Shown: piece by piece, positions 15,276-52,740 of the stretch
Layout of the letters: the number at the start of each line of letters is the position of its first letter
How positions within the stretch are numbered: the stretch's first letter is position 1
IMG/VR virus record: IMGVR_UViG_3300050015_001011
Location: 1-52,740 of that record
Length of the DNA: 52,740 bases
Reading direction: 5' to 3' (one strand)
Source: a virus
Taxonomy: Duplodnaviria > Caudoviricetes
Program-made: the position numbers and the translations under genes
Notes under the pieces: generated by a model
What the model saw: only the letters and a program-made list of their open reading frames with translations
The model's database searches: none
What the model was told of the DNA's origin: nothing

Positions 15276-15282
15276 AGAATAT

Positions 15283-15354: not shown

Positions 15355-15361
15355 TAATAAG

Positions 15362-15454: not shown

Positions 15455-15459
15455 ATGTA

Positions 15460-15544: not shown

Positions 15545-15558
15545 AAAATGTAATCGCT

Positions 15559-15701
15559 TTTCAGTATGGCGTAGATAATGGGTACTTCTAAAAGGAACTG
15601 GCCGTCGTTGGTTCAATTCCAACTTCAAACCTTCGGGTTTGGATAGCTCAGTTGGCAGAGCACCAGTAAAAAAAGTCCTTTATCGCCTGTTCCTACTGAA
15701 G
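15559..15701 (+). ncRNA. yrlA: YrlA-type Y RNA with tRNA-mimic domain (unit 3)
   Basis: TTCAGTA/TACTGAA terminal stem; ACTGG/CCAGT stem; T arm GTTGG-TTCAATT-CCAAC; acceptor-like stem TTCAAACC-TTCG-GGTTTGGA; D arm TA-GCTC-AGTTGGCA-GAGC; order T-acceptor-D as in YrlA; downstream of Ro60. Confidence 0.88.
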
Positions 15702-15718
15702 ATTTTAAAAGGAGGCAA

Positions 15719-38066: not shown

Positions 38067-39914
38067 ATGGATAAGAAGACATCTATAAGTATATTAGATA
38101 TTTTTGATCGCGAAGTAGCGAAATGTGATACGGGAGACAATTTATACGAAGAGTTTCCAGTTAACATTGCTGAGTTTATTGATTCACCTGATTTTTTAGA
38201 TCAGAAGAAAACTATTTGGCCAGGCATCAGAGATATCTTAATAGATTTTTTTCAATTTGAGCCTGATGGTTGGCTTAAATATAATTCAGGTGTTGTTATA
38301 GCAGGCTTAGGCGCAGGTAAGTCTAAGTTTGTATCTATTGCTATTACTTATTTAGTTTATCGGTTACTTTGTCTAAGATCACCTCAACTTTATTTTAGAG
38401 AAACTCTTAAACTTGAATCCATAGAAGCTACTTCAACTATTCAGATTGTAAACTTTGCTCCTTCAGCAGATCAGGCTCGCAGAGTTGTGTTTGATTATAT
38501 ATCGTCGGATGTGGGAAATTGCGCCTGGTTTATTAAGAAGGGCTATGCTCCGGATTCAAATGTAACCTCTGAATTACGCTTTCCGAAAAACGTTACAATC
38601 ACGCCAGGTTCAAGCTCAGCCAAACCCGCCTTAGGTTTACATTTATTAATTACGGTTTTTGATGAAATGAGTTTCTTTGATAAGACTAGAGAAACTGATT
38701 ATGCGAAAGAACTTTATCAGTTGCTTACAGGGAGAATGAGAAGTAGGTTTTCTCAGTTAGATGGGCGAGCTCGTTGGCTATTCTTAGGAATTACTTCCGC
38801 ACAAACAGCTGATGATTATAGTGAAGAGTTGTTTAAAGATAGCAAGAATACTGAATATGGTTTTGCTAGAAGACTTACTTTCTGGGAAGCTAAGAGGCAT
38901 TTGTTTGCTGACTGTGCTTCGTTTGATTATAAGGTTACTGACGTGGCAGGAAATTTAATAGAGGTAATAAAGGTACCGGAAGTATATAGAGATGAGTTAG
39001 AAAGAAATCCAGTTCTCTTTTTAAGAGATGTAGCGGGTCGCCCTTCTCTTGCCGTGCACCCATTCTTTACAGATTTTTCTAAAGTTCTAAGTAGCATTGA
39101 TGAAACCTTTATAAACCCTGTTCCTGAGAAAGGTTGGGAGAGCGGAGGATATTTAAAACCGCTATCTTTTTTACCGACTGATTTGCTACAAATACTTAAA
39201 GAAATACAATTTCAGAATAAAGTTGTATCTGGAGCAAAATATATTATATCACTTGACCTTGCAAAAGGAGTTAGAGATAAACTTGGATTTGGTATGTCTC
39301 ATTTGGATTCGTATAAGAGAGAAAGTAGATTTGATAAAGATGGCAAGGCTTTTTTAGCAGAACTTCCTATAGTAGTGCTGGATTTAATAGTGAGGTTTGT
39401 AGCGTTGCCCGGAACTGAGATTTCATTTGCCGACGTAAGGGAACTTATTTTTATGTTAAAGAAGACTTTTGGGTTTGATATTAAATTAATAGTTAGCGAT
39501 TCTTTTGAGAGTTTGGATTTTAAGCAGATAATGTTAGCGGCGGGGTATGATTTTCTTGTATATTCGGCTGATACACATAGAGAAGTATATGATAACTTTT
39601 CGGAACTTATAAGTGACAAGAGAATAATATGGTATAGACATGAGCCGTTATTGTATGAGGCGCAGAGAGTAGAAGATTTAGGAGCTCGTATAGACCATCC
39701 AAGGAATTCAGGTAAAGATTTATTAGATGCGGCCTGCCTCGCAACTTATTTTGCTTCAGGCGGTAAGAAGATGGAAGAGTTAACTGGTACGAGAGTTACT
39801 GCTGCAACAACAAGAAGAGGTAAAGGAGCGTTGAGTACTGGTCTTGGTGGAGGTGGAGCTGCAGCATTAACTCCACAGCTTTCAGAAACAGTAAAAAGAA
39901 TACTTGGGGGGTAA
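38067..39914 (+). CDS. terL: Terminase large subunit
   Basis: Walker A GLGAGKS, QA..VVF, Walker B VFDE, ITS coupling motif, RNase H-like ISLDLA, C-terminal DHP...KDLLDA. Confidence 0.9.
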   Translation: MDKKTSISILDIFDREVAKCDTGDNLYEEFPVNIAEFIDSPDFLDQKKTIWPGIRDILIDFFQFEPDGWLKYNSGVVIAGLGAGKSKFVSIAITYLVYRLLCLRSPQLYFRETLKLESIEATSTIQIVNFAPSADQARRVVFDYISSDVGNCAWFIKKGYAPDSNVTSELRFPKNVTITPGSSSAKPALGLHLLITVFDEMSFFDKTRETDYAKELYQLLTGRMRSRFSQLDGRARWLFLGITSAQTADDYSEELFKDSKNTEYGFARRLTFWEAKRHLFADCASFDYKVTDVAGNLIEVIKVPEVYRDELERNPVLFLRDVAGRPSLAVHPFFTDFSKVLSSIDETFINPVPEKGWESGGYLKPLSFLPTDLLQILKEIQFQNKVVSGAKYIISLDLAKGVRDKLGFGMSHLDSYKRESRFDKDGKAFLAELPIVVLDLIVRFVALPGTEISFADVRELIFMLKKTFGFDIKLIVSDSFESLDFKQIMLAAGYDFLVYSADTHREVYDNFSELISDKRIIWYRHEPLLYEAQRVEDLGARIDHPRNSGKDLLDAACLATYFASGGKKMEELTGTRVTAATTRRGKGALSTGLGGGGAAALTPQLSETVKRILGG

Positions 39915-40085: not shown

Positions 40086-40301
40086 ATGATAAAGTTAAGT
40101 CGAAAGAAAGAATCCCAGCAAGAAAGAAGGTTCAGAGCAAGTATTTATGTTGATCTGTTTGTACTCAGAACTGAAAACAAAGAATATGATAGGAAAGTTG
40201 CTTTACAAAAGGTAGAAGAGATATCTAAAGGAATTCCTAATTCTTATGTCGGTGGAGTAGGTCACTTTGGAGATGGACTAACGCTTGACCAGGAAATATA
40301 A
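40086..40301 (+). CDS. Small protein with MIKLSR leader
   Basis: AGGAG RBS; leader shared with many downstream ORFs. Confidence 0.65.
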   Translation: MIKLSRKKESQQERRFRASIYVDLFVLRTENKEYDRKVALQKVEEISKGIPNSYVGGVGHFGDGLTLDQEI

Positions 40302-40310
40302 AGGAGGAAT

Positions 40311-40553
40311 ATGGGACCAATTGAGGTTATTGTAGAAGCAGCTCGCAAGCAGGAGATGGTAAATATTGTATATTCGAAGGTTAATGGCGAAACCAAAAGT
40401 TATTCGGATTTAGAGCCATATAGCCAAAGAGGTAATTGTTTATGCCTGTATGATTCTAACGCCGGTAGTATTAAATACTTTAAAATTGATGGTATTGTGA
40501 GCGCAGAAAGTACGGGAAATACATATAGTCCTCGTTGGGATGTTGAACTTTAA
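40311..40553 (+). CDS. Stand-alone WYL-domain protein
   Basis: IVYSK..GE......EPYS......YD......KYFKIDGI pattern of the WYL SH3-like fold. Confidence 0.75.
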   Translation: MGPIEVIVEAARKQEMVNIVYSKVNGETKSYSDLEPYSQRGNCLCLYDSNAGSIKYFKIDGIVSAESTGNTYSPRWDVEL

Positions 40554-40570
40554 TCAAGGGAGGCTTTAAT

Positions 40571-42001
40571 ATGGGAGAGATACTACATAATTTTACTGGT
40601 CGCAAGTTGGTAAGTACAGATATTTATAAGAACTATGATCAGCTTGTAAGAGAGGCAACAAGGAAGTTTAAGAAGACATCTAAAGATTTGTTTGGTATTG
40701 ATTTAAAGAAGATAGATGAAGATGATTTGAAAGATCAGACTGTTAGTAATGGTAGTGTTGTTGAAGGAGTTATTGTTTTGAAAGGAACGTTTAGAAAGTC
40801 GCGGCGTATGTATTCTTATTACATGGGCTTTAATGTAAAAGGAGGTGTACTTGGGAAGCCGTTAGATGTTATTTATACGCAGGATCTTGAACAGCTTCCT
40901 TTAAAGAAATCCAGTGCAAGTAAACTTTTACGGAAAGCTGATTGCGATGAAATAGTGAATATGGATGGAAAGGCGATTCAACATCTCGGTGTGTTCGCGG
41001 GAATTAAGAAATTTTTTAAGAGGGGTCAAGTAGCTCCAACAGCTCCAGGTGATACAACACGCAAGGATCTTAAGTATACTGATATAAAGAAGTATCCGCA
41101 AGAAACATTAAATCGCACAAAAGAACTTCCTGGTCCTGAAGGCGCAAAACGCCCTTTAACTAGGGTTCCTGAAGAGCAGATGGATCCAGTGGTTAGAGCA
41201 AAACTTAAAGAAGCTATCACTGCGCTTGATGCTCTTCAAAAGAAATGGGAACCAGTAAGCACTCAAATGGAGCAATTAAAGAGAGACGCAACTACTTATG
41301 AGAAGGAATTTGGTGACAAGATGCTTGAGATTTATAACCTATCTCAAAAGTTTGATGTTATCTATGATATTGTAGATGATCTTGGAACTTTTATGAATGT
41401 AGGTATTTATACTACAGAAGAAAAAGCTGTTGCACCTAAATTGGAATTAACTGCAACAGAGTTAATCAAGAAGTTAGAGGAAATACCTTGGATCAATGAA
41501 AAGATAATCGAAGTTAAGGCTGCTGCTACAATGGCTATGAAGGTAATGATACCGCCTAAGACTGATCCGAAGTTGATTCCTGAAGTTAAGATTGCTGATA
41601 AAGAAAGAGCAGTAGAAAAGAAAGAAAAGACCGCTCAAGAGAAAGATAGTACAGCCAATCGGGTTCTTGATATGTTAAAAGATTCTGTACAAAGTCTTGT
41701 TGATGCTGTTCAGAATTTTTGGAGTGGACTTAAAAGCGTGAAGGATGTTTCGGTGCAGCAAAATAATGTTCCGGAATCTGCAGTAGGTCGGCCAACAGGA
41801 ACAGAGTTGCTTACCGCAGTTATGCGAGAAGAGATCCCAAGACCTGATGATAGTGGAGCAGGTATGCTAAAGTGGCGTAGGCAGTCTAGTAGTAAGAAGT
41901 ATCTAGAAGGTAAAAAGAGTTCAGGTAGAGCAGAAAGAACTTATGAAGCTTGGGATAAGTCATACATAGATACAGAAAAGGTTAAGAAAGATCTTAGTTA
42001 G
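40571..42001 (+). CDS. Large hypothetical protein, possible internal virion polyprotein
   Basis: Modules separated by KRGQ and KTAQ motifs; coiled-coil segments. Confidence 0.6.
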   Translation: MGEILHNFTGRKLVSTDIYKNYDQLVREATRKFKKTSKDLFGIDLKKIDEDDLKDQTVSNGSVVEGVIVLKGTFRKSRRMYSYYMGFNVKGGVLGKPLDVIYTQDLEQLPLKKSSASKLLRKADCDEIVNMDGKAIQHLGVFAGIKKFFKRGQVAPTAPGDTTRKDLKYTDIKKYPQETLNRTKELPGPEGAKRPLTRVPEEQMDPVVRAKLKEAITALDALQKKWEPVSTQMEQLKRDATTYEKEFGDKMLEIYNLSQKFDVIYDIVDDLGTFMNVGIYTTEEKAVAPKLELTATELIKKLEEIPWINEKIIEVKAAATMAMKVMIPPKTDPKLIPEVKIADKERAVEKKEKTAQEKDSTANRVLDMLKDSVQSLVDAVQNFWSGLKSVKDVSVQQNNVPESAVGRPTGTELLTAVMREEIPRPDDSGAGMLKWRRQSSSKKYLEGKKSSGRAERTYEAWDKSYIDTEKVKKDLS

Positions 42002-42047
42002 TATTTTGTTGTTCAACTTTTGCTGCGAAGCAAAGAAAAGGAGAAAT

Positions 42048-42470
42048 ATGATGGTAGAAAAAGCGGGAAAAGGCAGCTTAGAAGTAACGAAGGTTTATAT
42101 CACGCCAGCTTTCAAGCGTGAGGGAAGAACAAGATTGCGGGCTTATGTAAGCATTGTTCTTAATGATTCTTTTATGGTAAAAAATATTAGAATCATAGAG
42201 AAAAAAGAAGTTAAGCCTGGTGAGAGTAAGTATTTTATTGTATTTCCGAACCGAGAAAATACACGTCCTTGTACTGCGTGCTCAGCTAAGGTTTCATTCC
42301 GCGATGAGTTTTGTAAGGTATGTGGAACGAAGTTGTCTCCAATTATTCAGGAAGCTACATACAAGGATCTTTGCCATCCTATAAAGAGGGACGTGTCCGA
42401 TGTGCTTGAGAAATGTATTTTGGATGAATATACAAAATTTCAAGAAAAAATGGTTGCTGGTGCGAAGTAG
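42048..42470 (+). CDS. SpoVG-family protein with inserted double zinc ribbon
   Basis: LRAYVSIVLNDSFMVKNIRII...FIVFP...YKDLCHPI; insertion CTAC...FCKVCG. Confidence 0.85.
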   Translation: MMVEKAGKGSLEVTKVYITPAFKREGRTRLRAYVSIVLNDSFMVKNIRIIEKKEVKPGESKYFIVFPNRENTRPCTACSAKVSFRDEFCKVCGTKLSPIIQEATYKDLCHPIKRDVSDVLEKCILDEYTKFQEKMVAGAK

Positions 42471-42480
42471 TAAATAGGAA

Positions 42481-42550
42481 ATTGTAGTTTAGAAGCTGGA
42501 AGATTTAGTAAAGTTTGTTATACACTATTTCTTCCAGCTTCTATTATAGT
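42481..42550. repeat. Long inverted repeat upstream of an endonuclease gene
   Basis: TAGAAGCTGGAAGA (42490-42503) / TCTTCCAGCTTCTA (42530-42543), perfect 14 bp, extendable with G-U pairs. Confidence 0.85.
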
Positions 42551-42564
42551 GTAAAGGAATTAAT

Positions 42565-43284
42565 ATGTCGTATATAAGAACACCGGAAATTTTAGAAAAA
42601 CAATCTAAAGCACTGATGGGGCATCTTGTCAGTAGAGAAGTACGTGATAAGATAGCAAAAGCTTTAATTGGAACAACCCGTACTGAAGAATCTAAATTAA
42701 AACAATCCAAGACAATGTCTGGCGAGAATCATCCTAATTATAATCCTAAAAATTATATTATGGAGACTAGGTATTGTGCTTGTGGCTGTTTAGCGCCTTT
42801 TGAGTGTTCTATAACTTCTGAAAAAAGTTGTCTCACAGGGCATAGTAGGCTTACTAAAGAGAAGCATGAAAATATGTCTAGAGCTACTTCCGGTAAAAAT
42901 AACGGTCATTATGGGAAGCCAGCTGCAAAAGAAGCAGGTCGCGGAAAAGTAGGAACGCGCTTAGATCTTAATCAGTTCTTTCGTTCTACTTGGGAAGCAA
43001 ATCAAGCTAGAGTTTTTAATTGGGAAGGTATTCCTTGGAAGTTTGAATCTAAAAGATTTTATTTTACTGGCGACAACGTTAAAAGTTCGTATTGTCCGGA
43101 CTTTCATATCCCAGGAACTAATATTTGGTATGAAGTAAAAGGTTATATGGATGATGTTGCGAAGAAAACCATTAAAATATTTCGTAAGCAGTATCCTAAT
43201 GAGATTTTGATAGTAATAGGTAAAGAAGAATACGGTAGAATGAGAGACACATATAAAGACTTGATTCCTAATTGGGAATCTTAA
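42565..43284 (+). CDS. Free-standing PD-(D/E)XK homing-type endonuclease (paralog)
   Basis: YIRT, ETRYCACGC..F.C, FRSTWEAN...YCPDF...WYEVKGYM...DLIPNWE. Confidence 0.8.
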   Translation: MSYIRTPEILEKQSKALMGHLVSREVRDKIAKALIGTTRTEESKLKQSKTMSGENHPNYNPKNYIMETRYCACGCLAPFECSITSEKSCLTGHSRLTKEKHENMSRATSGKNNGHYGKPAAKEAGRGKVGTRLDLNQFFRSTWEANQARVFNWEGIPWKFESKRFYFTGDNVKSSYCPDFHIPGTNIWYEVKGYMDDVAKKTIKIFRKQYPNEILIVIGKEEYGRMRDTYKDLIPNWES

Positions 43285-43285
43285 A

Positions 43286-43573
43286 ATGATTATAATTAGG
43301 AATAAAAATGGTGAGGACGTTGCTCATGTAGACGACGATAATAAGCTTTTCTTGAATAGCGGGGAACAAATAGGAGAAGTGATAAATAACAAAGTATATA
43401 GCCTACGTAATGTTTATCTAGGAGAATTGCGTAATGACATGGTTATTGCGTTAAAAACGCTTGTTCTGCAGACGCCATCTGCACCAAGAATGGGCATTAA
43501 GAAATCTGAGAGAGCTCCTTTTGTAAAGAGTGTTAAAAGAATCATACCTACCGGATATCGCAGTGTTTTTTAA
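43286..43573 (+). CDS. Small beta-repeat protein (4-fold beta-flower-like)
   Basis: Repeated N..GE.(V/I)(A/G).(V/L) units: NKNGEDVAHV, NSGEQIGEV, LRNVYLGEL. Confidence 0.55.
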   Translation: MIIIRNKNGEDVAHVDDDNKLFLNSGEQIGEVINNKVYSLRNVYLGELRNDMVIALKTLVLQTPSAPRMGIKKSERAPFVKSVKRIIPTGYRSVF

Positions 43574-43589
43574 GATGAGGAGAAAAGAT

Positions 43590-43982
43590 ATGAATAAGAG
43601 AAGAAAGGCACAAGCAGCTCCAGGAGAAAATCCTGCTGTGATAGATTGCACAGGAAAAATTTGTCCGAAGTGTGGTTCACCTCTACAACCTAAAGCCCTT
43701 CCAAGCGGTACCACATCGTGTGCATGTCCAAATTGTGATAGAAATATTGTTAATGCTAAAACAAATGCTAGAATGCTATTCGAGAAATATGTTTCAAAGA
43801 AAGAAAAGGAAACTGGTCCTTATATACCTGATGGAGAGAAAGAACAGGAAGAGGATGAGAAAGAAGTAGTTAAGAAGGAAACAAAACAAGAAGAACGGTT
43901 CAGAAAGATGTTAAAGAAAAATCCTAATTATAAGGATAAGGCCGAAAAGGATTTAGAAGATTTTGATAAAGATTTAATTTAA
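43590..43982 (+). CDS. Zinc-ribbon protein with basic leader ending in AQ
   Basis: MNKRRKAQ...CPKCG...CPNC; GAGGAG RBS before ATG 43590. Confidence 0.65.
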   Translation: MNKRRKAQAAPGENPAVIDCTGKICPKCGSPLQPKALPSGTTSCACPNCDRNIVNAKTNARMLFEKYVSKKEKETGPYIPDGEKEQEEDEKEVVKKETKQEERFRKMLKKNPNYKDKAEKDLEDFDKDLI

Positions 43983-43983
43983 A

Positions 43984-45348
43984 ATGATTAAGTTATCAAC
44001 ACAACCTAAATACAAGATAGGAGACCTCATCACTTTAAAACAAGGTGCTGAGGTAATTATTTCTGGTACGCAGGACGAGGTTCCGAGAAAGTGGGTAGAT
44101 GATGGTAAGCTTTGGGGTGTAGATCATTATGAGGAAGAATCAGGAAGGCTTAATATCAATCGCGTACTTACTCCTTATCCTGGTGCTTTTTGTTCTTGGG
44201 TATCCGAAGATGAAGTACTAGGAATAAGTTTAAGTAGACAAGCTCAAGATGATGAAGATGAGTTTGATGTAGTAGCACGCAAGTTTCTAAAGTGGACAAA
44301 GAGTTTAAATCTTTCAACTCCGAGCGCATTTATTTCTAAGAATAAATTAGAAAGATTATTTAAAGGGCTTGCTAAAACAGGGTTTATAGATAGACCGTTA
44401 CTTGAGGAACTTAGAATGGACGTAATTGTTAATTTAAAAAGTTTTGTAAGTAAAGTTAAAGAATTTTGGAAAAGATATAACGTAATGGATGAAGATGAGA
44501 AGGGGCATCTTTCTAGCATCTGGAGTGAAGGATCGTATGATAATGATGATATTGAGGCCGGAATGGACAACCTAGATGAGTTATTCTCTTTTGAAGATAG
44601 TGGCGGTGGCTTATCTTATTACGAAGCTCTATTGCAACCGGGACTTTCAGATGCAGATTTATTTCAAAGATTTAATACATTCATAAATTTTGCTCATCAG
44701 AGAATAGATTATGGCGCAGATTGGGTAGAAGGAGGTAGAGAAACTTTGGATGAATTAGCTGGCTATAAAAAAGTATTTAAAAAGAAAGCAGCAGACTTTA
44801 CTTGCATTATGCTAGAGATAGATAAGCAAGAAAGTATTTATGCTAAGATAAAGGCTATTGCAAAGAAGATAAAGAAGGAAGATCTGTCAGAAGATGGTAG
44901 AGAAGATGATTTACATGTTACGCTGAAGTATGGACTTGATACCGAAGATCCTGCCCTCATAAGGCCTTTACTTGATAGTGAAGGAAAAATTACTTTAGAA
45001 ATAAAGAAGCTCGATTATTTTGGGGCTAAGGAAACAAAGCAGGATTTTGATGTAGTTATTCTTAGAGTAGATTCTGATCAAATACAAGAACTTCATGAAA
45101 CTATAACTGATACCTTTAAGGATTCGGGCGAAACTCATCCTAAGTACTTGCCCCATATTACTCTTGCTTATGTAAAAAGGGGTTTGGGAAAAGATATCGT
45201 AATAGAATTAAGAAAGGATGCTGAAGATTTAATAGGTAAAAAAATTGTATTTAAAGAAGCTTTATTCAGTACACCAGAAGAAAAAAAGACTGTGATAAAA
45301 TTAAGTAGGCAGATAGTAAAACAAGTTAGATTAAGCAGACAAGGATAA
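43984..45348 (+). CDS. Multidomain protein with C-terminal 2H phosphoesterase (Acb1/LigT-like)
   Basis: Two HxT motifs LHVTLKYG and PHITLAYV; N-terminal SH3-like and acidic modules joined by LSRQAQ and KKKAA linkers. Confidence 0.85.
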   Translation: MIKLSTQPKYKIGDLITLKQGAEVIISGTQDEVPRKWVDDGKLWGVDHYEEESGRLNINRVLTPYPGAFCSWVSEDEVLGISLSRQAQDDEDEFDVVARKFLKWTKSLNLSTPSAFISKNKLERLFKGLAKTGFIDRPLLEELRMDVIVNLKSFVSKVKEFWKRYNVMDEDEKGHLSSIWSEGSYDNDDIEAGMDNLDELFSFEDSGGGLSYYEALLQPGLSDADLFQRFNTFINFAHQRIDYGADWVEGGRETLDELAGYKKVFKKKAADFTCIMLEIDKQESIYAKIKAIAKKIKKEDLSEDGREDDLHVTLKYGLDTEDPALIRPLLDSEGKITLEIKKLDYFGAKETKQDFDVVILRVDSDQIQELHETITDTFKDSGETHPKYLPHITLAYVKRGLGKDIVIELRKDAEDLIGKKIVFKEALFSTPEEKKTVIKLSRQIVKQVRLSRQG

Positions 45349-45350
45349 AT

Positions 45351-46058
45351 ATGCCAAGTGGAATATATGTAAGAACAATAGAGATGAATGAAAGGCAGTC
45401 TAAAATAATGACAGGAAAACTTACTGGTGATCCTCGATTAAGTAGAAAAGGTAAGCTAAATTCTCAGTATGGTAAAACCGGAGAAAATGCTCCTAATTAT
45501 AATCCGAAGAACTATATTTTAGAAACTAGAATATGTGTATGCGGCTGTAGTTTACCTTTTGAATGTTCTTTGTCTTCTAAAAAGAGATTTATTAAAGGCC
45601 ATGGTCGCATAGGTAAGATTTTTTCTGAAGAGGCTTTAAAGCTAATGTCTGAAGCAAGGAAAGGTGAAAAGCATCCTAATTTTGGAAAATCCGCTTATCC
45701 CGGCTCTGGTTATGGTAAATCTGGTAAAAGAAAAGATCTCAATAATCAAAGCTTTAGATCTACCTGGGATGCTAATGTAACTCGCATCTTTAATTATGAG
45801 GGTATACCATCAGAATATGAATGTAAAAGATTTCCTCTTATTAGGGCAGATGGTTCAAAAACGTCATATCTTCCTGATCATCATATTGTAGGAACACATA
45901 TATGGTACGAGCAGAAAGGTTATATGAGATCCGGTTGCCTGGAAAAAATAACTTTGTTTAGAGAACAGTATCCAAATGAAATTTTAATTGTAATAGGTCC
46001 TGAAGAATATAAAAGATTTAAAGAGTCTTACAAAGATTTAATTCCTAACTGGGAGTAG
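45351..46058 (+). CDS. Free-standing PD-(D/E)XK homing-type endonuclease (paralog)
   Basis: MPSGIYVRT, ETRICVCGC, FRSTWDAN...YLPDH...WYEQKGYM. Confidence 0.8.
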   Translation: MPSGIYVRTIEMNERQSKIMTGKLTGDPRLSRKGKLNSQYGKTGENAPNYNPKNYILETRICVCGCSLPFECSLSSKKRFIKGHGRIGKIFSEEALKLMSEARKGEKHPNFGKSAYPGSGYGKSGKRKDLNNQSFRSTWDANVTRIFNYEGIPSEYECKRFPLIRADGSKTSYLPDHHIVGTHIWYEQKGYMRSGCLEKITLFREQYPNEILIVIGPEEYKRFKESYKDLIPNWE

Positions 46059-46059
46059 C

Positions 46060-46440
46060 ATGAAACTATCAAGACAAGGCCAACAATCTTTTAATACCAT
46101 TTTTTGTAGCACGGGAGAAGAGAAAGCTCTTGGTTTACAAGGAGTAGTAGACATACCGAATAATACAATTCTTGCGTTCGAGGGAGTTTCCCAAGGCGAT
46201 TTCTTTCATATGAGAAATTGTGCTTTCCCGATTGACTGGTTGTGTGTATCTAATGATGGAACTATTTTAAAAAAAGAAGCGCTGCATCCAGAAGATGATG
46301 TTGCTGGAGTTGCGCCAGGCACGAAGTATGTGATTGAAGCCAAATTGGGAACGTTTAGCGGTAATAAGGGAGATCAAATAGATCTGACTAGTTTAAAGCC
46401 TTCCGGAGGATCTGTGTTTGACTTGTCCAGGAACAAATAA
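46060..46440 (+). CDS. DUF192-like protein with MKLSRQGQ leader
   Basis: EKALGLQ, FHMRNCAFPID, KYVIE motifs of DUF192. Confidence 0.75.
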   Translation: MKLSRQGQQSFNTIFCSTGEEKALGLQGVVDIPNNTILAFEGVSQGDFFHMRNCAFPIDWLCVSNDGTILKKEALHPEDDVAGVAPGTKYVIEAKLGTFSGNKGDQIDLTSLKPSGGSVFDLSRNK

Positions 46441-46483
46441 AAATGCAGGAAATTCTAATTATTTTATAGTAAAGGAGATTGTA

Positions 46484-47314
46484 ATGCCAACAGGAGTATA
46501 TGTAAGGACATTTGAGAATAGTAAAAGGCCTCATCTTAAAGAAAATCTTTCTGAAGAGACGGTAAGATTAATGTCGGAAGCACAGTCTGGCGAAAAGGGC
46601 CATAACTATAAATCTGAATGCCATGATTATGAAACTAGAATTTGTGATCCTATTTGTGGTTGTGGCGAAACTTTTGAATGTCTTAGACGTTCTAATCAAA
46701 AGTATATTCTTGGACATAATGGTAGAACCAAAGAAGCTAAGAGACATTTATCTGAAACGAATTCAGGAGAAAAGAACGGTCAGTTTGGGGTTGAGCCATG
46801 GAATAAAGATACAAAAGGTATTGTGGTTGCTTGGAATAAGAATTTGACTAAAGAAACCGATTTAAGAGTAAAAAAGAATTCCTTTCAAATAAGTTCTACT
46901 TTGAAAGAGGGTTATAAGTCGGGTAGAATTGTTAGTGCTCGTTTGGGCAAACCTTGTCCTAAAGGGGCTGGTCATAGTAAAGGTGGTATTAGAGAGGATA
47001 TAGGAATATATGTGCGATCTACTTGGGAAGCTAATTTTGTTAGAATACTTGATCTTTTAGGTATATCTTGGTTATATGAATCTAAGAGATTTGCACTAAT
47101 CAGAGCTGATGGATCTAAAATGACATACTGTCCAGACTTTTATGTTTATGGTGTATATTGGGAAGTTAAAGGATATATGAGACCGGAAGCAGCTGAAAAG
47201 ATAAAATTATTTAAAGAGCAATATCCAGAACAGGGATTAGGAGTAGTTGATCACGAAGAATATAAGAAGTTAGAAAGGGAATATAGAGATTTAATTCCGA
47301 ATTGGGAAAGTTAA
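46484..47314 (+). CDS. Free-standing PD-(D/E)XK homing-type endonuclease (paralog)
   Basis: MPTGVYVRT, ETRIC..CGCGETFEC, two WNK motifs, RSTWEAN...YCPDF...WEVKGYM. Confidence 0.8.
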   Translation: MPTGVYVRTFENSKRPHLKENLSEETVRLMSEAQSGEKGHNYKSECHDYETRICDPICGCGETFECLRRSNQKYILGHNGRTKEAKRHLSETNSGEKNGQFGVEPWNKDTKGIVVAWNKNLTKETDLRVKKNSFQISSTLKEGYKSGRIVSARLGKPCPKGAGHSKGGIREDIGIYVRSTWEANFVRILDLLGISWLYESKRFALIRADGSKMTYCPDFYVYGVYWEVKGYMRPEAAEKIKLFKEQYPEQGLGVVDHEEYKKLEREYRDLIPNWES

Positions 47315-47328
47315 AATAAGGAGAGATT

Positions 47329-48030
47329 ATGGACAAAGTAAAGAAGGTGGTAGTGTCGCAACAAACAGTAGATCAATTAGACAGCGTGGCCAATTATTTT
47401 TTCAGTTTACCTGAAGAAACTCTTAGACAGCTTACAACTCTTCAAGAATTAATTTCGCAGTATAGTGCTAATCCAGATGCAGATCCCGCAATTCAAAGTC
47501 TAATCGGAAACGCTCATGGTTTTATGGATGATGTAAAATCTTTTGTTCGTTCTTTAGGAATTTCTATTGGTAAGTTAAGAGGTGCGTTAATACCCCCTAC
47601 GAGTCAAGTCCAACCAGCAGCAAATCCTCAAGAAAATCAACAGCTTTATGCTAAACGTGTGGCTCAAGTATCTGGAGAAGAAGATAAAGAGAAAGAGTTA
47701 GATCCAAAGTTTAAGAAGATATGGGACAGTCCATTATCTCCAGGCACTGTGTATAGAAGTATGGAACCTTTTGTTCCTGAAGCTCGCGAAGATAAAAAAG
47801 TTGGTGCGGGATATGATCCATCCTTTTTAGCTGAAGATATTATTAGACGCGCAAGAGGTGGTTTTGCTTTAGGTGCTCCTTATCAAAGTGTGCAAGAAGC
47901 TTATGATGCAGAGATTGGTGATGATAAGAATCTTAGTAAGGAAACAAAAGAAGAGGTAATTAAGATTCTGTCTAATCTAGGTTATAAAGTAAAGGGGGCA
48001 AAAGAAGCTGATAACAAAGAACTTTATTAA
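47329..48030 (+). CDS. Hypothetical protein with VVSQ and KRVAQ motifs
   Basis: ORF with RBS-like AGAGAG. Confidence 0.6.
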   Translation: MDKVKKVVVSQQTVDQLDSVANYFFSLPEETLRQLTTLQELISQYSANPDADPAIQSLIGNAHGFMDDVKSFVRSLGISIGKLRGALIPPTSQVQPAANPQENQQLYAKRVAQVSGEEDKEKELDPKFKKIWDSPLSPGTVYRSMEPFVPEAREDKKVGAGYDPSFLAEDIIRRARGGFALGAPYQSVQEAYDAEIGDDKNLSKETKEEVIKILSNLGYKVKGAKEADNKELY

Positions 48031-48056
48031 GATAAAGTAAACTTGAGAGGTTATAA

Positions 48057-49238
48057 ATGAATAAAACTATGAAGGCGTACTCTAGAAGTTCTGCCACATC
48101 TAAGGATATTTTAGAAAGAACTACTAATCTTATTTTAAGATTAGACAAGGTAAGTTTAGTTTTAAAAGAGCTATCAACTAGTTTATTAAAAAAATCAAGA
48201 GACTATAATCTTAATATTCAAAAAAGGAGTTTACATCATAATGGATAAGGTAACTTTATGCGATTCAGGTAAAACAGAAGGTACTATTTTAGAAAGACTT
48301 AAAAAAGTTAATGGTTGCTTGGATAATGTAAGTTTGAATCTTCTATCCATCGCCGCTTCCATTAAATCTGGTTCTTTGGTTGTTAATTCTGGTAAACTAT
48401 ATAATAAAGAAAAAGATATGGAAGTTACTTCTGTTTATGAGAGAGAAGATGTCTCTGTATTAAAAGCGTATTTTAAAAAGGGTGCCATTAATAATGAACA
48501 CATTCATTTAGGCGTATTAGAATACATTATTTGTTTGAATAAGGAAGGAAAGTTAGAACTAATTACTCCCAGTGGTTCTAGATTTTGTATGTACAATGAG
48601 TTAGTAGTTATATCAGCATCAGAACCGCATAAGACAATAGCTTTAGAAGATACAGATGTAATTTGTGTTTGTGTGCCGAAAGAAAAAGATTACAATTCTG
48701 TTTTAACAATTATCAAAAACGAAGGGATTTAATAATGAATAATAGTAGATCAATAACATTAGCAGAACTGGAAGCATTTACCAGAGTAAATGAAAAGGTT
48801 GCTAGTAATCTTGAAGGTATCGCAAACAGCTTTAAAGAGAATATAAAGATAATGGAGAAAATTTGCGATCGTCAGGAAGAATTGGGCAACGAAGTTCGTG
48901 GTGGTCTAAAGGAAGAAGTGCTTTCTAAGATAATTGAAGAATCCAATAATACAGCAAAAGTTATAAAAGATGATTTAAATGATCATTATGATACAGTCAA
49001 AGCTAATTTAGACAATCAAAAAGAACTTGTAAAATCTGTTTTGATAGAAACTAGAGATTCTGTTAGAAATGAGTTAATAACATACAGATTAGGTTTAGGC
49101 GCAATATTAGATGGCATAAAGAATTTAATCCAGACTGCGGTAGACAATACTAATTTAATAAGAATTGTTGTACAATATTTTTTGATTATAGTAGGTGTTT
49201 CATATATAATCTTTCAGTTACTGCATTTAAAGTTTTAG
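48057..49238 (+). CDS. Three-gene cluster: short helical protein (48057-48248), cupin-like protein (48241-48732), coiled-coil protein with C-terminal TM helix (48735-49238)
   Basis: HIH...EY and PHKTIALEDT cupin motifs; terminal hydrophobic helix. Confidence 0.55.
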
Positions 49239-49248
49239 TTTATTAAAT

Positions 49249-52052
49249 ATGAAGAAACTTACTTGGTTTGGTGATGATATTGTTGTATATGGAGAAGTGC
49301 ATAGGGAAGGGATAGATGATCCTGTTAGAGATGAATTTGTAGGTAAAGAAGGTCTTGTTGTAATTCAAATAAATAAAGAGAATGAATTAGCATCTGTAAC
49401 AATAACTGATGTAGCGAGATTTATAAAGAAACAGATAATTGATGTGATTAATAAAGAAACAAAATATAAAATATAAAAGGAGAGAATTGTAATATGTATA
49501 GGATAAGTAAGGCAATAACTAGAAGATTGTTAGCAGGTGATACGTTCTGTAGCTGCGGTGCTAGTAGGCAAGAATGCGCGGAGATGCGAGAGCAAGGCGG
49601 TAAGTGTTGTCCTAAGTGCATTCATATTAGAAAAGAAAACAACAAGAAATGGCGGGAATATCAAAAGAAACAAAAACGAGATAATCCTTTATACAATCCA
49701 GGTAAATCTGGTTGGTAAAAAATTATGAATAGACTAAGTAGAGCAGTACAGAATCAATTTAATGATAAGAAGGAAAGAGAAGATATTAGAAACTTAACTC
49801 TAAGTAGTGAAAGGGCTTATTATAAATTAAGAGGCGCTGGTATGGGTCATGAAGAGGCTTTAGAAGAGCTATCTAATAAGGCATTAAGTAATAAAGGAGA
49901 AACAAATAATGGTTAAACTAAGTAGAACAGTAAGCGGTAGATTGGCTCAACGTCAACCAGATGAACCAGGCATAGAAAGGGAAGAGATATCATATTGATG
50001 ATTTAAATGAAGCCGCAACTGAGTGGTTTTACAATCAGGCCGATGCTAGACAAAAAGTAGAAAACTTTATATTAGAAGAGTATAAGAAGGCCTTCAGTAT
50101 AAGCGAAGAGGATGTTGAGTATTAAGATGAATAAGATGAATGAAACAGAAAGATTATTAAAGTGCTTACCTTTTACTGCAGAAGGTGTGCCGGGTGATAG
50201 TTACCCTTTAGTTATAACCAAATTATATGATAGTAGATACATGATAGGATATTGGAAGTATGGTCAACGCGTTGATTGGAGTAAAGCAACATATCTTATT
50301 TCGTTTTCAGATAAAAATATAAATAAAGCTTTAAGAGGGTTACTTAAGTGGGTTAAAGAGCGAATGGAAATTAACAAATCAAGTACATAGGCATAATTAA
50401 GTATATAGACCGGAGAAAATAATATGAGTATGATCCGCCACGTTAAGAACACTATAAACAAAGTATTCAATCCTAGTAGTGAACGCCAAGAAGATAATAT
50501 GGCGATCTGCAATAAATGTAGTAACTCCTATCCTAAGTCTTGGCACAGTTGTCCTTATTGTAAGGTAGTAGTGGCTCCAGATAAGCCAAGGGTAGAGAAA
50601 GGAAACTAATAATGAACAGAATAGTTAAGGCAGTGAGGAATCATTTAAAGGCCTATATAGAACTAGATGATATGGAAAAGGACCACGCCAAGAATGGAGA
50701 GTTTACTTGGGCTGCCGAAAGTGTTGCTAGTAGAACTAAAAAGACTAAAGATGAATGCATGCCAAGTGTGATGCAGTATTGCAGAGATTTAAATGATCCA
50801 GATAGTTCGGATTATGATAAGCATAATAAGGAGAGATAAGAATGAGTAAACTAGAACAGCTGCAAGATGATATTTGGGCTTGGCTGTTTAGATTAATTTG
50901 CTTGTGTGGTATATCAATTGTATTTGCTATAACAATTATTATTTGGAAGTTTGCTTTAAGAATGTAGGAGAGATAAATGATTAAACTAAGTAAAGCAATA
51001 AGTAAGAGATTAGGACAAGGACCCGGTTGGCCAAGTGATTTTGAAGAGGAAGAAGATAATGGTGAAAGAGCCCAAAGTCCTTGTTGGCTAGCATTAGTAA
51101 AATTAAAGGCATCTTTGCGCCAGGCTCAAATTGATGGACTTGCTTGCAGTAAAATTGATACAGAGGCTGGCAACGCTAATCACCCTTTCTTTAAACATCT
51201 TCCAGACGTTGATACTAGAATACAAGATGCATTAACTATGGTTGAAGATGAGATGGCAAGTTATACGCCCTAATTTTATAGGAGCATAAAAATGAACAGA
51301 ATAGTTTTGGCAGTAAGGAATCATTTAACTGGTGTTGACAAGGATACTCAAATATCTTATTTTCGTTATCTTGATATTGCTAAAGGTAACGGAGCAGTAA
51401 TTTCTGAGAAAAATTTAAGACAAGAATTAACTTGGGCCAATGAAGGTAAGGCTGTTGTATTAGATTATGATGATATGTCGGATATTATTGATATGTGGCG
51501 TAGCTCAAGAGGTATAAAAGTACCTCTTGATGAAATGGTATAAAAGGAGAATAAACTATGAAAAGAAAATCATTAAAAGAACGTATTGCAGTAAGGCGAG
51601 CTTTAAAGAAGAGATTAACTGCCCAGCGTGATTATGCTTTTCATTTAGGTTGGGATGAATTAGATCCTGATTTGCAAGCTGCGAAGATAGAGAAATATCT
51701 TACATTCAATGCTGCACCAGAAGTTGGCGGAGATCAATACGAAGGTGAGGATAAGGAAGAAGGTTCAAGAGCGTGGTCAGACGCGGAAGATGCCATCTCC
51801 GCTCATTTTCCAATATACTTTTAAGGAGATAAGAATATGAAAAGACAGAGTTTAAAAGAACGTATTGCTGCACGTAGAGCGTTCAAGAAGGGTCAGTGGG
51901 ATAAACTGGCTCAAGATGGTCTAGGCGCACAAGATGGTTTAATGGAAGTAGCAAATATGGAGATTGATGACATTGCTCATCGTCTTAGTATTGATCACAC
52001 TGCCGCAAAGGTTATTTGGCATCTTGTTTCTGATTATCTTAACAAAAACTAA
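49249..52052 (+). CDS. Array of small proteins, most with basic leaders (49494, 49725, 50612, 50977, 51292, 51558, 51837; also 49249, about 50127, 50424, 50842)
   Basis: Strong AGGAG RBSs; shared N-termini MYRISKAI, MNRLSRAV, MNRIVKAVRNHL, MIKLSKAI, MKR.SLKERIA. Confidence 0.65.
49909..50125 (+). pseudogene. Leader-family gene MVKLSRTVSGRLAQ... broken by a +1 frameshift
   Basis: Frame from ATG 49909 stops at 49998; the +1 frame (HIDDLNEAATEWFY...) is open to TAA 50125 with no start of its own. Confidence 0.5.
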
Positions 52053-52053
52053 A

Positions 52054-52740
52054 ATGATAAAACTAAGTAGAGCAGTTCAGGCTATAAGTGATGACACGGC
52101 GTTAAGCTTGATCTTACGCTCACCAGGCGTAATGATAGAACTGCATCGTTATGAAGGCGTTGAGAAGACTGTGAACTTGCCAGAGATTCTATTTAATGCC
52201 TATATAAGAGATATGCAGTCAGTTGCGGATCATATGGGTCAAGAGCTGCCCGCGACAGTCAGAGACGTCATCGCCAATAAAGATCGCATAAAGAGCGCGT
52301 TACGCGCGAAATTTGAGAGGTCTAATATGGATATCAAAGCACAAAAGAAGACGTTAGAGGATGAAGTCTCCGAGTTAGGGCAACCGTTTAAAGACTGGGT
52401 TGTAAAAGAATATAAAAATCATTGGCACGTATTGAGTGATGCTACACTAAGAGAAGCAGCAGATAAATACAAAAGCGACTTTGCTGATGGATATAGTGAT
52501 GCACTAAAAAATACCGCTCAATTAAAAGAAAGCCAGATGGAGAAAGAAGTTCCAGTAAAGATTGCTCCAGTAGATGAGAAGGCATTAGAGAAGGGCAAAG
52601 TTGTTCCCAAAGAGGAAAACAGCGATTTAAAGGAAAAGAAACCAGGTTTAGTGAATACTCAACCGATTGCGGGTGATGAAGATAGTGAAGCTGTTGAAGA
52701 TACGTCGTTGAGTGAAGACTCAAAGGCTAACGCCGAACGC
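52054..52740 (+). CDS. Partial leader-family protein (MIKLSRAVQA...), runs off the window; absent from the ORF track
   Basis: 229 open codons from ATG 52054; internal IKAQ and NTAQ motifs; acidic tail. Confidence 0.8.
   Translation, partial: MIKLSRAVQAISDDTALSLILRSPGVMIELHRYEGVEKTVNLPEILFNAYIRDMQSVADHMGQELPATVRDVIANKDRIKSALRAKFERSNMDIKAQKKTLEDEVSELGQPFKDWVVKEYKNHWHVLSDATLREAADKYKSDFADGYSDALKNTAQLKESQMEKEVPVKIAPVDEKALEKGKVVPKEENSDLKEKKPGLVNTQPIAGDEDSEAVEDTSLSEDSKANAER

What the first reader, a model, noticed from the sequence alone, without database searches (positions are those of the whole stretch)
40086..52740. Shared basic N-terminal leader on at least 12 unrelated post-terminase proteins: candidate capsid-targeting and processing code
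Seen, as N-termini: MIKLSRKKESQ (40086), MIKLSTQ (43984), MKLSRQGQ (46060), MYRISKAITRRLLAG (49494), MNRLSRAVQNQ (49725), MVKLSRTVSGRLAQ (49909), MNRIVKAVRNHLKA (50612), MIKLSKAISKRLGQ (50977), MNRIVLAVRNHLTG (51292), MKRKSLKERIAVRRALKKRLTAQ (51558), MKRQSLKERIAARRAFKKGQ (51837), MIKLSRAVQA (52054), plus MNKRRKAQ (43590). The bodies after the leader are unrelated and often acidic, and I did not see this leader among the replication-region genes. Known: T4 internal proteins use a short N-terminal capsid-targeting sequence removed by the prohead protease, and jumbo-phage head proteins are cut at short motifs. Inference: these leaders are a portable packaging tag, ending at a basic-x-[AGS](-Q) cleavage site, that lets the phage load a variable payload for injection with the DNA.
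Basis: partly seen in the sequence, partly recalled or inferred. Interest (0 to 1): 0.85.

Follow-up and report, generated by a model that had tools for sequence, protein, structure and literature searches.

The report
Shared leader peptide on phage accessory proteins
An uncultured phage puts the same short basic peptide at the front of about ten unrelated small proteins, and between the domains of a multi-enzyme protein, which looks like an address-and-cutting tag for loading proteins into the virus head, though nothing here shows that they are loaded or cut.

Summary
Eight genes after the terminase start with M-x-[KR]-[LI]-S-[RKT]. Two start MNRIV[KL]AVRNHL and two start MKR[KQ]SLKERIA. 43590 does not fit. 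None of 65 earlier genes has the motif (Fisher p=1e-4; 0.07 expected by composition). The bodies are unrelated.

New here:
- The short form [IKRS]-L-S-[RT]-Q also occurs inside proteins. It occurs four times in the 454-aa 2H-phosphoesterase protein.
- It occurs four times in a relative's single NTase+2H+DUF192 protein (P0017), always at domain boundaries.
- In the window a homing endonuclease splits that gene, so the "leader" of 46060 is an inter-domain linker in the relative.
- Codons differ between copies, so selection acts on the peptide. The rare CTA Leu codon in 5 of 7 leaders shows that the 5' ends were copied as DNA.
- Homologues of this 2H domain sit in giant multidomain proteins and next to a head-protease-like domain.

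So a T4-CTS-like sorting and processing tag is the best reading (about 0.4). It is unproven. The head genes lie beyond the contig end and no protease was found. The proposed "-[AGS]-Q" cleavage rule is statistically weak (p=0.05 and 0.19). I rate it a new variant of a known kind.

The parts
38067..39914 (+). Large terminase (context: upstream limit of the leader-bearing region)
   Evidence: tblastn to phage terminases at 27-28% identity. Homologues carry PF27249.
40086..40301 (+). 71-aa orphan protein starting MIKLSRKKESQQ (strict leader)
   Evidence: No Pfam or PHROG family. No homologue in the 8 relative loci.
43575..43982 (+). Zn-ribbon protein with a basic N-end (MRRKDMNKRRKAQ). It lacks the motif and is not counted as a leader protein.
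   Evidence: Its orthologue in G001 starts MKRKEQNQQ.
43984..45348 (+). 454-aa protein: MIKLSTQ leader, about 270 aa of unknown fold, then a 2H phosphoesterase domain (271-443) and a disordered tail
   Evidence: Pfam PF13563 at 40.3 bits and PF23474 (Acb1) at 34.7 bits. In the AF2 model the 2H part is confident. Foldseek matches Usb1, CPDase, a poxvirus cGAMP PDE, a phage PDE and Acb1. H311/T313 and H391/T393 are invariant or nearly so.
44224..44241 (+). Internal motif copy ISLSRQ (residues 81-86), followed by AQDDEDE
45295..45348 (+). Two C-terminal motif copies, IKLSRQ-IVKQV-RLSRQG-stop. The IKL of the first copy lies in the last strand of the 2H fold.
45351..46058 (+). Homing endonuclease (NUMOD3 + endonuclease-I-like) sitting exactly at the 2H|DUF192 junction, which is one continuous ORF in relative P0017
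46060..46440 (+). 126-aa DUF192 protein starting MKLSRQGQQ. The leader lies outside the Pfam domain (residues 16-101).
49494..49718 (+). 74-aa Cys-rich basic protein starting MYRISKAITRRLLAG
49725..49916 (+). 63-aa orphan starting MNRLSRAVQNQ
49909..49998 (+). 29-codon ORF starting MVKLSRTVSGRLAQ: a leader with almost no body, possibly a decayed gene
50612..50839 (+). 75-aa orphan starting MNRIVKAVRNHLKA (variant leader)
   Evidence: (repeat family D4).
50977..51273 (+). 98-aa acidic orphan starting MIKLSKAISKRLGQ
51292..51543 (+). 83-aa orphan starting MNRIVLAVRNHLTG (variant leader)
51558..51824 (+). 88-aa acidic orphan starting MKRKSLKERIAVRRALKKRLTAQ (loosely related basic leader)
   Evidence: (D6).
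51837..52052 (+). 71-aa orphan starting MKRQSLKERIAARRAFKKGQ (paralogous N-end to 51558)
52054..52740 (+). First 229 codons of a 301-aa protein starting MIKLSRAVQA, cut by the contig end. Its last ~70 residues are conserved beside or near the portal in relatives.

Best explanation
What it is. The element is a lineage-specific, portable peptide module. Its long form is M-x-[KR]-[LI]-S-[RK]-[AT]-[VI]-x-x-[RK]-L-x-Q, a basic and moderately amphipathic stretch. Its short form is [IKRS]-L-S-[RT]-Q. The phage attaches it to the N-terminus of about ten unrelated, mostly acidic and mostly orphan accessory proteins encoded between the terminase and the portal. It also places it between the domains of a small polyvalent-type protein (NTase / 2H phosphoesterase / DUF192).

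How it most likely works (inferred). It acts like the capsid-targeting sequence of T4 internal proteins. It would bring cargo into the assembling head and mark where a protease trims the tag or separates domains, so that a changeable set of probable counter-defence enzymes travels with the DNA.

Shown here:
- The motif is real and enriched.
- It is under peptide-level selection.
- It spreads by copying of gene 5' ends.
- It sits at N-termini and at domain boundaries.

Inferred only: binding to the prohead, cleavage, presence in virions, and injection.
For: 1. Enrichment. The strict motif occurs in 7 (8 with 52054) of 27 genes after 40 kb, 0 of 65 before, and 0 of 107 minus-strand ORFs; 0.065 are expected.

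2. Unrelated cargo. Two cargoes have unrelated Pfam domains, 2H and DUF192.

3. Peptide-level selection. Ser is coded AGT/AGC or TCA, Leu TTA or CTA, Arg CGA/AGA/AGG in different copies. Replacements are conservative: K/R, V/I, A/T.

4. Modular spread. The rare CTA Leu codon (7% of Leu codons in this genome) is used in 5 of 7 Leu positions of the N-terminal leaders. Repeat families of 32-49 nt span the starts.

5. Internal copies without Met.
- There are 4 matches in the 454-aa protein and 4 in P0017, against 1 match in 123,855 residues of 148 other homologues.
- In P0017 they lie at residues 2, 14, 276 and 451, just before the NTase, 2H and DUF192 domains.
- In the AF2 model (mean pLDDT 81.9) they lie in or next to low-confidence stretches: residues 1-19; the 271-280 block, which dips to 55; and 456-475.

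6. The window protein and P0017 share MIKLS[TV]Q, although the next ~270 residues are not homologous.

7. Virion-type cargo.
- Homologues of the P0017 domains include 29 of 148 proteins of at least 1000 aa.
- One of them has a lytic transglycosylase like T7 gp16.
- P0018 joins DUF2213 / a 'head maturation protease' PHROG to this 2H domain.
- Iyer et al. 2017 (PMC5512222, passages read) describe 2H domains fused to MuF or portal domains and predict that they are packaged.

8. Position. The genes lie between the terminase and the portal of syntenic relatives.

9. Hypervariability. 1 of 11 leader proteins has a homologue in the 8 relative loci, against 7 of 13 non-leader neighbours, p=0.027.

10. 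Clade-wide signature. M-x-K-L-S starts different proteins in 5 related phages: LRR proteins in L020 and L021, and unknown proteins in L022, L029 and G001.

11. Precedent. T-even internal proteins are described as a diverse set of defence proteins with only a conserved CTS (PMC3012670, passages read).
Against: - No head protein, scaffold or prohead protease is on the contig, so no essential head protein could be checked for the motif.
- No protease domain was found among the 57 window proteins scanned with Pfam. Not every gene was scanned.
- The Q-terminated cleavage rule is weak.
- One internal copy, and the matching one in P0017, overlaps the conserved last strand of the 2H fold, T-x-I-[PK]-L-x-G in many homologues. 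It may therefore be there for structural reasons.
- The copy at the very C-end of 43984 may be a by-product of the homing-endonuclease insertion.
- Relatives carry the signature on only one protein family each, and the exact window motif is absent from about 56,000 residues of relatives.
- The region also holds clearly non-structural genes (SpoVG, homing endonucleases), so it could be an early or accessory block.
- The only 'internal head protein' PHROG hit (P0168, E=0.004) was not shared by its 3 homologues.
Confidence: 0.4

Rival explanations
1. Intracellular address or handle. The basic amphipathic N-terminal segment acts inside the infected cell. It could direct membrane, nucleoid or ribosome association, bind one common host or phage hub protein, or act as a degradation or timing tag. 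The cargo would be a set of early host-takeover proteins that never enter the virion.
For: - The genes are small, acidic, orphan and tightly packed, like early accessory blocks.
- The hydrophobic moment of residues 2-13 is higher than in other genes (0.46 against 0.32, p=0.011).
- Net charge of the first 14 residues is higher after 40 kb (1.6 against 0.5, p=0.019).
- Non-structural genes (SpoVG, Bflower, endonucleases) share the region.
Against: - It does not explain why the short form recurs without Met at domain boundaries of multidomain proteins.
- It does not explain why the one identifiable enzyme belongs to a 2H group found in giant multidomain proteins, one of which (P0094) carries a T7 gp16-like transglycosylase domain, and beside a head-protease-like domain.
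- The helix is only moderately amphipathic, and 4 of the 12 leaders score below 0.3.
Confidence: 0.25
2. Processing sites only. [IK]-L-S-R-Q marks where a phage or host endopeptidase cuts polyprotein-like precursors and trims N-termini in the cytoplasm. No role in capsid targeting is involved.
For: - Internal copies lie at every domain boundary of P0017 and in low-confidence linkers.
- Tandem double copies occur at the N-end of P0017 and at the C-end of 43984.
- Polyvalent proteins are proposed to be released by peptidases (PMC5512222, passages read).
Against: - No peptidase domain was found in these proteins or among the window proteins scanned.
- A cut that removes only 6-7 residues from a free N-terminus has no obvious purpose without a targeting role.
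- The long-form leaders have no fixed LSRQ.
Confidence: 0.15
3. Recombination joint. The conserved 5' end, together with the ribosome-binding site, is mainly a DNA-level homology patch. Through it gene cassettes are swapped, duplicated or fused, with homing endonucleases helping. The peptide itself has little function.
For: - Repeat families of 32-49 nt span the RBS and the first 10-12 codons.
- The rare CTA codon is shared by 5 of 7 leaders.
- Four paralogous homing endonucleases are present, one exactly at a motif-flanked junction.
- P0017 and 43984 have swapped N-terminal bodies behind the same seven residues.
Against: - Older copies keep the peptide while using non-interconvertible codons: AGT/AGC against TCA for Ser, TTA against CTA for Leu.
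- All differences among the four youngest copies are conservative.
- Internal copies are in frame and lack the Met and spacer that a simple read-through fusion would leave.
- This rival is compatible with a functional tag, as in the T-even internal-protein genes.
Confidence: 0.1
4. Chance, or one diverged paralogous family whose N-terminus happens to be the best conserved part.
For: The pairs 50612/51292 and 51558/51837 are probably paralogues. The LRR proteins of L021 and L020 that share MKKLSNFY are true paralogues.
Against: - 0.065 occurrences are expected against 8 observed.
- The leader sits on 2H, DUF192, Cys-rich and orphan bodies that share no similarity.
- One LRR paralogue, L021:13363, has a different N-end.
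Confidence: 0.03

Closest known systems
Capsid targeting sequence (CTS) of T4-type internal proteins (IPI-III, Alt)
   Same: A short conserved N-terminal peptide is shared by otherwise diverse proteins, some of them anti-restriction proteins. PMC3012670 (passages read) says the T-even internal proteins are a diverse set of defence proteins with only a conserved CTS. Here too the cargo is variable: 1 of 11 leader proteins is conserved in relatives. The phage also has T4-style recombination genes: gp32-like, RecA, Mre11/Rad50 and many homing endonucleases.
   Different: - There is no sequence likeness to the T4 tag.
- The leaders are basic and almost free of Glu (4 of 180 residues). T4 and giant-phage proteases cut after Glu: L/I-x-E is recalled for T4, and sites such as ASE-20, AVE-75 and ALE-111 are given for SPN3US in PMC10052503.
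- The tag varies in length (6 to about 23 residues) and also occurs inside proteins.
- Packaging and cleavage are unproven.
Polyvalent proteins of phages and conjugative elements (Iyer, Burroughs, Anantharaman, Aravind 2017, PMC5512222)
   Same: Conflict-type enzyme domains (2H phosphoesterase, nucleotidyltransferase) are strung in one polypeptide and encoded beside portal or terminase genes. They are predicted to be packaged and injected, and released by peptidases (passages read). P0017 (NTase+2H+DUF192) and the giant homologues fit.
   Different: - These proteins are small, with 1-3 recognised domains.
- No embedded peptidase was found.
- The same domains also exist here as separate genes, each with the tag.
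- I saw no repeated linker or leader motif mentioned in the passages I read. I did not read the whole paper or its supplementary files.
N-terminal propeptides of giant-phage head and ejection proteins (phiKZ, SPN3US)
   Same: Several head proteins carry N-terminal propeptides removed at a short motif, with multiple motif copies inside propeptides. SPN3US has 14 sites in 9 proteins, 13 of them N-terminal (PMC10052503, passages read).
   Different: Those propeptides are not a shared sequence, are mostly 111-254 residues long, and end in A-x-E. Here one short common peptide is reused.
Phage P1 Dar antirestriction system (DarA, DarB, Hdf, DdrB)
   Same: Counter-defence proteins are incorporated into the head during morphogenesis and delivered with the DNA, some after proteolytic processing. 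PMC5512222 describes DdrB (passage read). For PMC12810830 I saw only the listing and abstract.
   Different: In P1, incorporation depends on an ordered chain of protein partners (recalled), not on one common leader peptide.
Cargo-loading peptides of encapsulins and encapsulation peptides of bacterial microcompartments (recalled; no paper read here)
   Same: Short, often amphipathic terminal peptides on unrelated cargo enzymes dock them inside a protein shell. Encapsulin shells share the HK97 capsid fold.
   Different: These are cellular compartments, the peptides are usually not cleaved, and there is no sequence similarity.

Membership tests
T4-type CTS / internal-protein system | One short conserved N-terminal peptide on otherwise unrelated proteins | tested here: met
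   8 strict, 2 variant and 2 loose leaders. Similarity is confined to residues 1-26.
T4-type CTS / internal-protein system | Cargo genes form a hypervariable set between related phages | tested here: met
   1 of 11 leader proteins has a homologue in 8 relative loci, against 7 of 13 non-leader neighbours, p=0.027.
T4-type CTS / internal-protein system | Tag ends in the Glu-type cleavage motif of the T4/giant-phage prohead protease | tested here: not met
   Only 4 Glu in the 180 leader residues. No x-x-E end is seen. The T4 motif itself is recalled. The SPN3US A-x-E motif comes from PMC10052503.
T4-type CTS / internal-protein system | A prohead protease and scaffolding core encoded by the phage | tested here: inconclusive
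   The head module lies beyond the contig end. The portal was found only in relatives. No protease domain was found among the window proteins scanned.
T4-type CTS / internal-protein system | Proteins present in proheads or virions and cleaved | not testable with these tools
   This needs virion or prohead proteomics.
Polyvalent proteins (Iyer et al. 2017) | Two or more conflict-type domains in one polypeptide | tested here: met
   P0017 has NTP_transf_2 + 2H/Acb1 + DUF192. The window has the same 2H and DUF192, split by an endonuclease gene.
Polyvalent proteins (Iyer et al. 2017) | Encoded in the portal/terminase packaging neighbourhood | tested here: met
   The gene starts 4 kb downstream of the terminase, and the portal follows in syntenic relatives.
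Polyvalent proteins (Iyer et al. 2017) | Embedded peptidase (zincin-like, assemblin-like, LonC). The zincin-like MPTase domain occurs in about 36% of members, so this is not obligatory. | tested here: not met
   No peptidase family was found in 43984 or P0017.
2H phosphoesterase superfamily (cargo of 43984) | Two H-x-T/S catalytic motifs in a 2H fold | tested here: met
   H311-x-T313 and H391-x-T393 are conserved. PF13563 and PF23474 score above their cut-offs. Foldseek E is 3e-6 to Usb1 and 1e-4 to Acb1. The substrate is unknown.
Prp-processed N-terminal extension (ribosomal protein L27 / staphylococcal phage head proteins; recalled) | Adjacent aromatic residues just before the cut | tested here: not met
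   0 of 12 window leaders have adjacent aromatic residues in their first 15 residues. Relatives L020-L022 do have FY at residues 7-8, so the idea stays open for them.

The most novel reading that the evidence does not exclude
This phage clade uses one short peptide as both a zip-code and a cutting site, possibly cut after Gln, which would be a specificity not known to me for any phage head protease. The peptide works equally at a free N-terminus and between domains. This lets the phage switch freely between many small tagged cargo genes and fused polyvalent proteins. Homing endonucleases and leader-to-leader recombination would do the cutting and pasting at the DNA level. The payload (2H/Acb1-like phosphodiesterase, nucleotidyltransferase, DUF192 and acidic orphans; LRR and ankyrin proteins in relatives) would be injected ahead of gene expression to disarm nucleotide-signalling and other defences.
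Probability: 0.25. Interest if true: 0.8.

Novelty: new variant of a known kind. Interest (0 to 1): 0.6.

Why it matters
If the tag is a loading and processing signal, three things follow.
- It would be a second, independent example of the T4 capsid-targeting principle, in an uncultured phage lineage.
- It would give a sequence handle for listing virion-delivered counter-defence proteins directly from metagenomes.
- It would link small tagged cargo genes with the giant polyvalent proteins as two states of one system.

It would also offer a compact, possibly cleavable tag for packing foreign proteins into phage heads.

If the tag instead acts inside the cell, it still defines a set of about ten co-regulated or co-localised orphan proteins that can be tested together.

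Tried and rejected
- **DNA pattern scan.** I scanned IMG/VR for the leader as a DNA pattern. It returned 11 loci with one match each. Eight of them carry one unrelated gene family starting MKKLSKT (seven of them the complete 52-aa gene, one cut at the locus end). By my own rough estimate this is about the number expected by chance for a pattern of about 34 bits, so I dropped them.
- **Terminase searches.** A single-sequence scan of IMG/VR found nothing. The terminase profile found only G001 plus a distant high-GC phage, L013, which has no leaders. The genome-contig scan gave two distant loci, L036 and L037, which were not informative. The short fragments L031-L034 were not analysed. L023-L026 are the same phage as G001 and were not counted separately.
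- **Portal profile in IMG/VR.** It found only G001.
- **Continuation of the contig.** P0168 comes from a 22-kb contig that could not be found in IMG/VR.
- **Cleavage after Q.** The junction test gave p=0.046 and Q enrichment gave p=0.19. I treat this as unsupported.
- **Signals.** Sigma-70-type promoters and terminators were not enriched. TATAAATA, recalled as the T4 late promoter, occurs 9 times against 8.3 expected. There were no tRNAs and no Rfam family at gathering score.
- **PHROG hit for P0168.** The 'internal head protein' hit had E=0.004 and was found in 1 of 4 homologues. I treat it as noise.
- **ESM Atlas.** Neither G001's 414-aa post-portal protein nor P0168 gave a usable hit.
- **Other leader types.** I considered Prp/L27-type and double-glycine leaders and rejected them by inspection (and recall).
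- **Complex prediction.** I did not use it, because no candidate receptor is on the contig.

Full report
**Context**

The window is the whole of a 52.7-kb phage contig. All genes are on the + strand and the GC skew is uniform.

The first 40 kb carry these genes:
- FolE and QueC;
- a primase;
- a sigma-like protein;
- a Ro60/TROVE protein;
- a gp32-like protein, RecA and Mre11/Rad50;
- several glycosyltransferases;
- a homing endonuclease.

The large terminase is at 38067-39914. No cultured phage is close: the best terminase identity is 28%.

Uncultured relatives with 45-55% identical terminases exist. One of them, G001 (71.8 kb), is syntenic with the window. Its portal lies about 12 kb after the terminase.

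The region in the finding therefore lies between terminase and portal. The head genes proper lie beyond the end of the contig.

**The observation**

- Eight fit a strict pattern, M-x-[KR]-[LI]-S-[RKT].
- Two share MNRIV[KL]AVRNHL, which aligns with the long form MIKLSKAISKRL.
- Two share MKR[KQ]SLKERIA.
- 43590 is only basic, and I do not count it.

The strict pattern occurs in 7 of 27 called genes after 40 kb. It is 8 with 52054, whose start at MIKLSR is the one used by the public gene call P0168. It occurs in 0 of 65 genes before 40 kb and 0 of 107 minus-strand ORFs. Composition predicts 0.065 occurrences.

Similarity between the proteins stops after 6-26 residues, except in two probable paralogue pairs. 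The first 15 residues are net positive in 11 of 12 (the 12th, 52054, is neutral), and the bodies are net negative in 11 of 12.

49909 is a 29-codon stump.

**Peptide or DNA?**

It is both.
- The four youngest copies (49725, 49909, 50977, 52054) share 72-81% of a 32-nt stretch that includes the ribosome-binding site.
- Five of the seven Leu positions in the leaders use CTA, a codon that makes up only 7% of Leu codons in this genome.
- So the 5' ends have been copied as DNA.
- Other copies keep the same residues with codons that cannot be interconverted by single silent changes. Ser is AGT/AGC or TCA, Leu is TTA or CTA, and Arg is CGA, AGA or AGG.
- The differences among the young copies are all conservative.

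This points to selection on the peptide.

**The new element: internal copies**

The 454-aa protein at 43984 has the short form four times:
- MIKLSTQ at the start;
- ISLSRQ at residues 81-86;
- IKLSRQ and RLSRQG at the C-end.

Its only close homologue, P0017, is 576 aa and 63% identical over the 2H part. It is one polypeptide with a nucleotidyltransferase, a 2H phosphoesterase and a DUF192 domain.

P0017 carries MIKLSVQ at the start, IKLSRQ at residue 14, IKLSRQ at 276 and IKLSMRKAQ at 451. Each domain is thus preceded by a copy. In the AF2 model of P0017 (mean pLDDT 81.9) these positions lie in, or next to, the low-confidence stretches between confident domains.

In 123,855 residues of 148 other homologues the same pattern occurs once.

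The alignment also shows two further things:
- The window's homing endonuclease gene, 45351-46058, sits exactly where P0017 runs on from 2H into DUF192. The leader of 46060 is therefore an inter-domain linker in the relative.
- 43984 and P0017 keep the same first seven residues although their next ~270 residues are unrelated.

None of the internal copies is preceded by Met. They are therefore not simple fossils of fused gene starts.

**Caveats on the internal copies**
- Many homologues of this 2H domain end in T-x-I-[PK]-L-x-G.
- AF2 puts K435-K439 of the window protein in the last strand of the fold.
- So the IKL of the copy after the 2H domain, in both proteins, is partly structural.
- The very last copy in 43984 may have come in with the endonuclease. 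It codes LSRQG differently from the start of 46060.
- The clean internal copies are therefore ISLSRQ in the window, and residues 14 and 276 in P0017.

**What the cargo suggests**

The 2H domain has both H-x-T motifs. It matches Usb1, plant CPDase, a poxvirus cGAMP phosphodiesterase, a phage phosphodiesterase and Acb1 by fold.

A search of 1.84 billion representative proteins with P0017 gave 3342 hits at E<=0.001.
- Of the 148 listed homologues, 29 are at least 1000 aa and 15 are at least 2000 aa.
- One of them, P0094, starts with a lytic transglycosylase like that of the T7 ejection protein gp16.
- Another homologue, P0018, joins a DUF2213 / 'head maturation protease' domain to the 2H domain.

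This is the picture of the polyvalent proteins of Iyer et al. 2017. In the passages I read, they describe 2H domains fused to MuF or portal domains, predict packaging and injection, and propose release of domains by peptidases.

In the relatives, the proteins that carry the related N-termini or a basic N-end are LRR proteins (at least seven paralogues in L021) and an ankyrin protein. These are typical protein-binding effector folds.

**Relatives**

M-x-K-L-S starts one protein family in each of five related phages:
- G001: 1 of 92 genes;
- L020: 2 of 28;
- L021: 6 of 38;
- L022: 1 of 29;
- L029: 1 of 32.

There are none in L019 (23 genes), L027 (17) or L030 (7).

The exact window motif is absent from about 56,000 residues of relatives. 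So the signature is clade-wide, but its use on many cargoes is special to this phage.

Leader proteins are poorly conserved. 1 of 11 has a homologue in the relatives, against 7 of 13 non-leader neighbours, p=0.027. The exception is the last gene. Its C-terminal ~70 residues are conserved beside or near the portal in G001, L021 and L029, without the leader.

**Mechanism**

The best reading is a sorting-and-processing tag of the T4 CTS kind. PMC3012670 (passages read) describes T-even internal proteins as diverse defence proteins sharing only the CTS. Here the tag would be combined with a polyvalent-protein style of cargo.

The facts that support this reading over the others:
- position next to the packaging genes;
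- a cargo type found in giant multidomain proteins, one of which carries a T7 gp16-like domain;
- hypervariable cargo;
- motif copies at domain boundaries.

The facts that hold it back:
- no head or protease gene is available;
- part of the internal-copy evidence has other explanations.

I put it at 0.4.

The rivals:
- an intracellular targeting or hub-binding helix on early proteins (0.25);
- cytoplasmic processing sites only (0.15);
- a recombination joint with little peptide function (0.1);
- chance or plain paralogy (0.03).

**Novelty**

Shared capsid-targeting leaders and virion-delivered counter-defence proteins are known. Three things are new here: a leader unrelated in sequence, in an uncultured lineage, that is basic rather than Glu-terminated and is used both at N-termini and between domains.

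I did not search the literature for this particular motif. My three paper searches were about known systems. I therefore do not claim that it is absent from print. Supplementary files of the papers were not seen.

Noticed in passing
window 13890-15275 and 15276-15718: A Ro60/TROVE protein gene (Pfam E=2.5e-17) is followed by a 443-nt non-coding spacer. The spacer holds a YrlA (Y RNA-like) match at 15590-15685 with E=2.3e-5 and 33.9 bits, which is below the gathering score of 69. The spacer folds better than all 100 shuffles, z=-3.6. By eye it holds three similar modules ending in ...UGUUCC[UC]AC. This looks like a phage-borne Ro/Y-RNA module.
   Followed up: partly
window 5317-5976, 42565-43284, 45351-46058, 46484-47314: There are four paralogous homing endonucleases (NUMOD3 + endonuclease-I-like). 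The third splits a gene that is one NTase/2H/DUF192 ORF in relative P0017.
   Followed up: partly
window 4719-5309 and 9044-9715: GTP cyclohydrolase I and QueC are present. This suggests a 7-deazaguanine DNA modification pathway. QueC is shared with G001.
   Followed up: no
L021 13363-21662; L020 9384-14913: A tandem expansion of at least 7 (L021) and 3 (L020) paralogous leucine-rich-repeat proteins lies mostly between terminase and portal; one L020 copy sits just upstream of the terminase. All but one start MKKLSNFY[KR][IV]SQ.
   Followed up: partly
G001 71427-71792 (L015 18428-18793): An ankyrin-repeat protein with a basic N-end followed by an acidic run lies about 3 kb after the portal and is cut by the contig end.
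   Followed up: no
window 29096-32638: A 1180-aa protein aligns in two separate pieces (residues 123-291 and 816-1146) to a 699-aa protein of G001. This suggests a large insertion, possibly an intein. I did not scan this protein against any family library.
   Followed up: no
window 48057-48248 and 48241-48732: Two adjacent genes share a 51-nt repeat near their 5' ends at 71% identity (family D11). This is another case of copied gene starts.
   Followed up: no
window 40311-42001 and relatives: A conserved pair of genes with no known family (80 aa and about 420-600 aa) usually lies upstream of SpoVG in the relatives that hold both. Only the first ~110 residues of the larger protein are conserved.
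   Followed up: no
protein P0018 (from a 42-kb public contig): One polypeptide combines a DUF2213 / 'head maturation protease' PHROG domain, a 2H phosphoesterase and a long Ala/Lys-rich tail. This links the 2H group to head assembly in another phage.
   Followed up: partly
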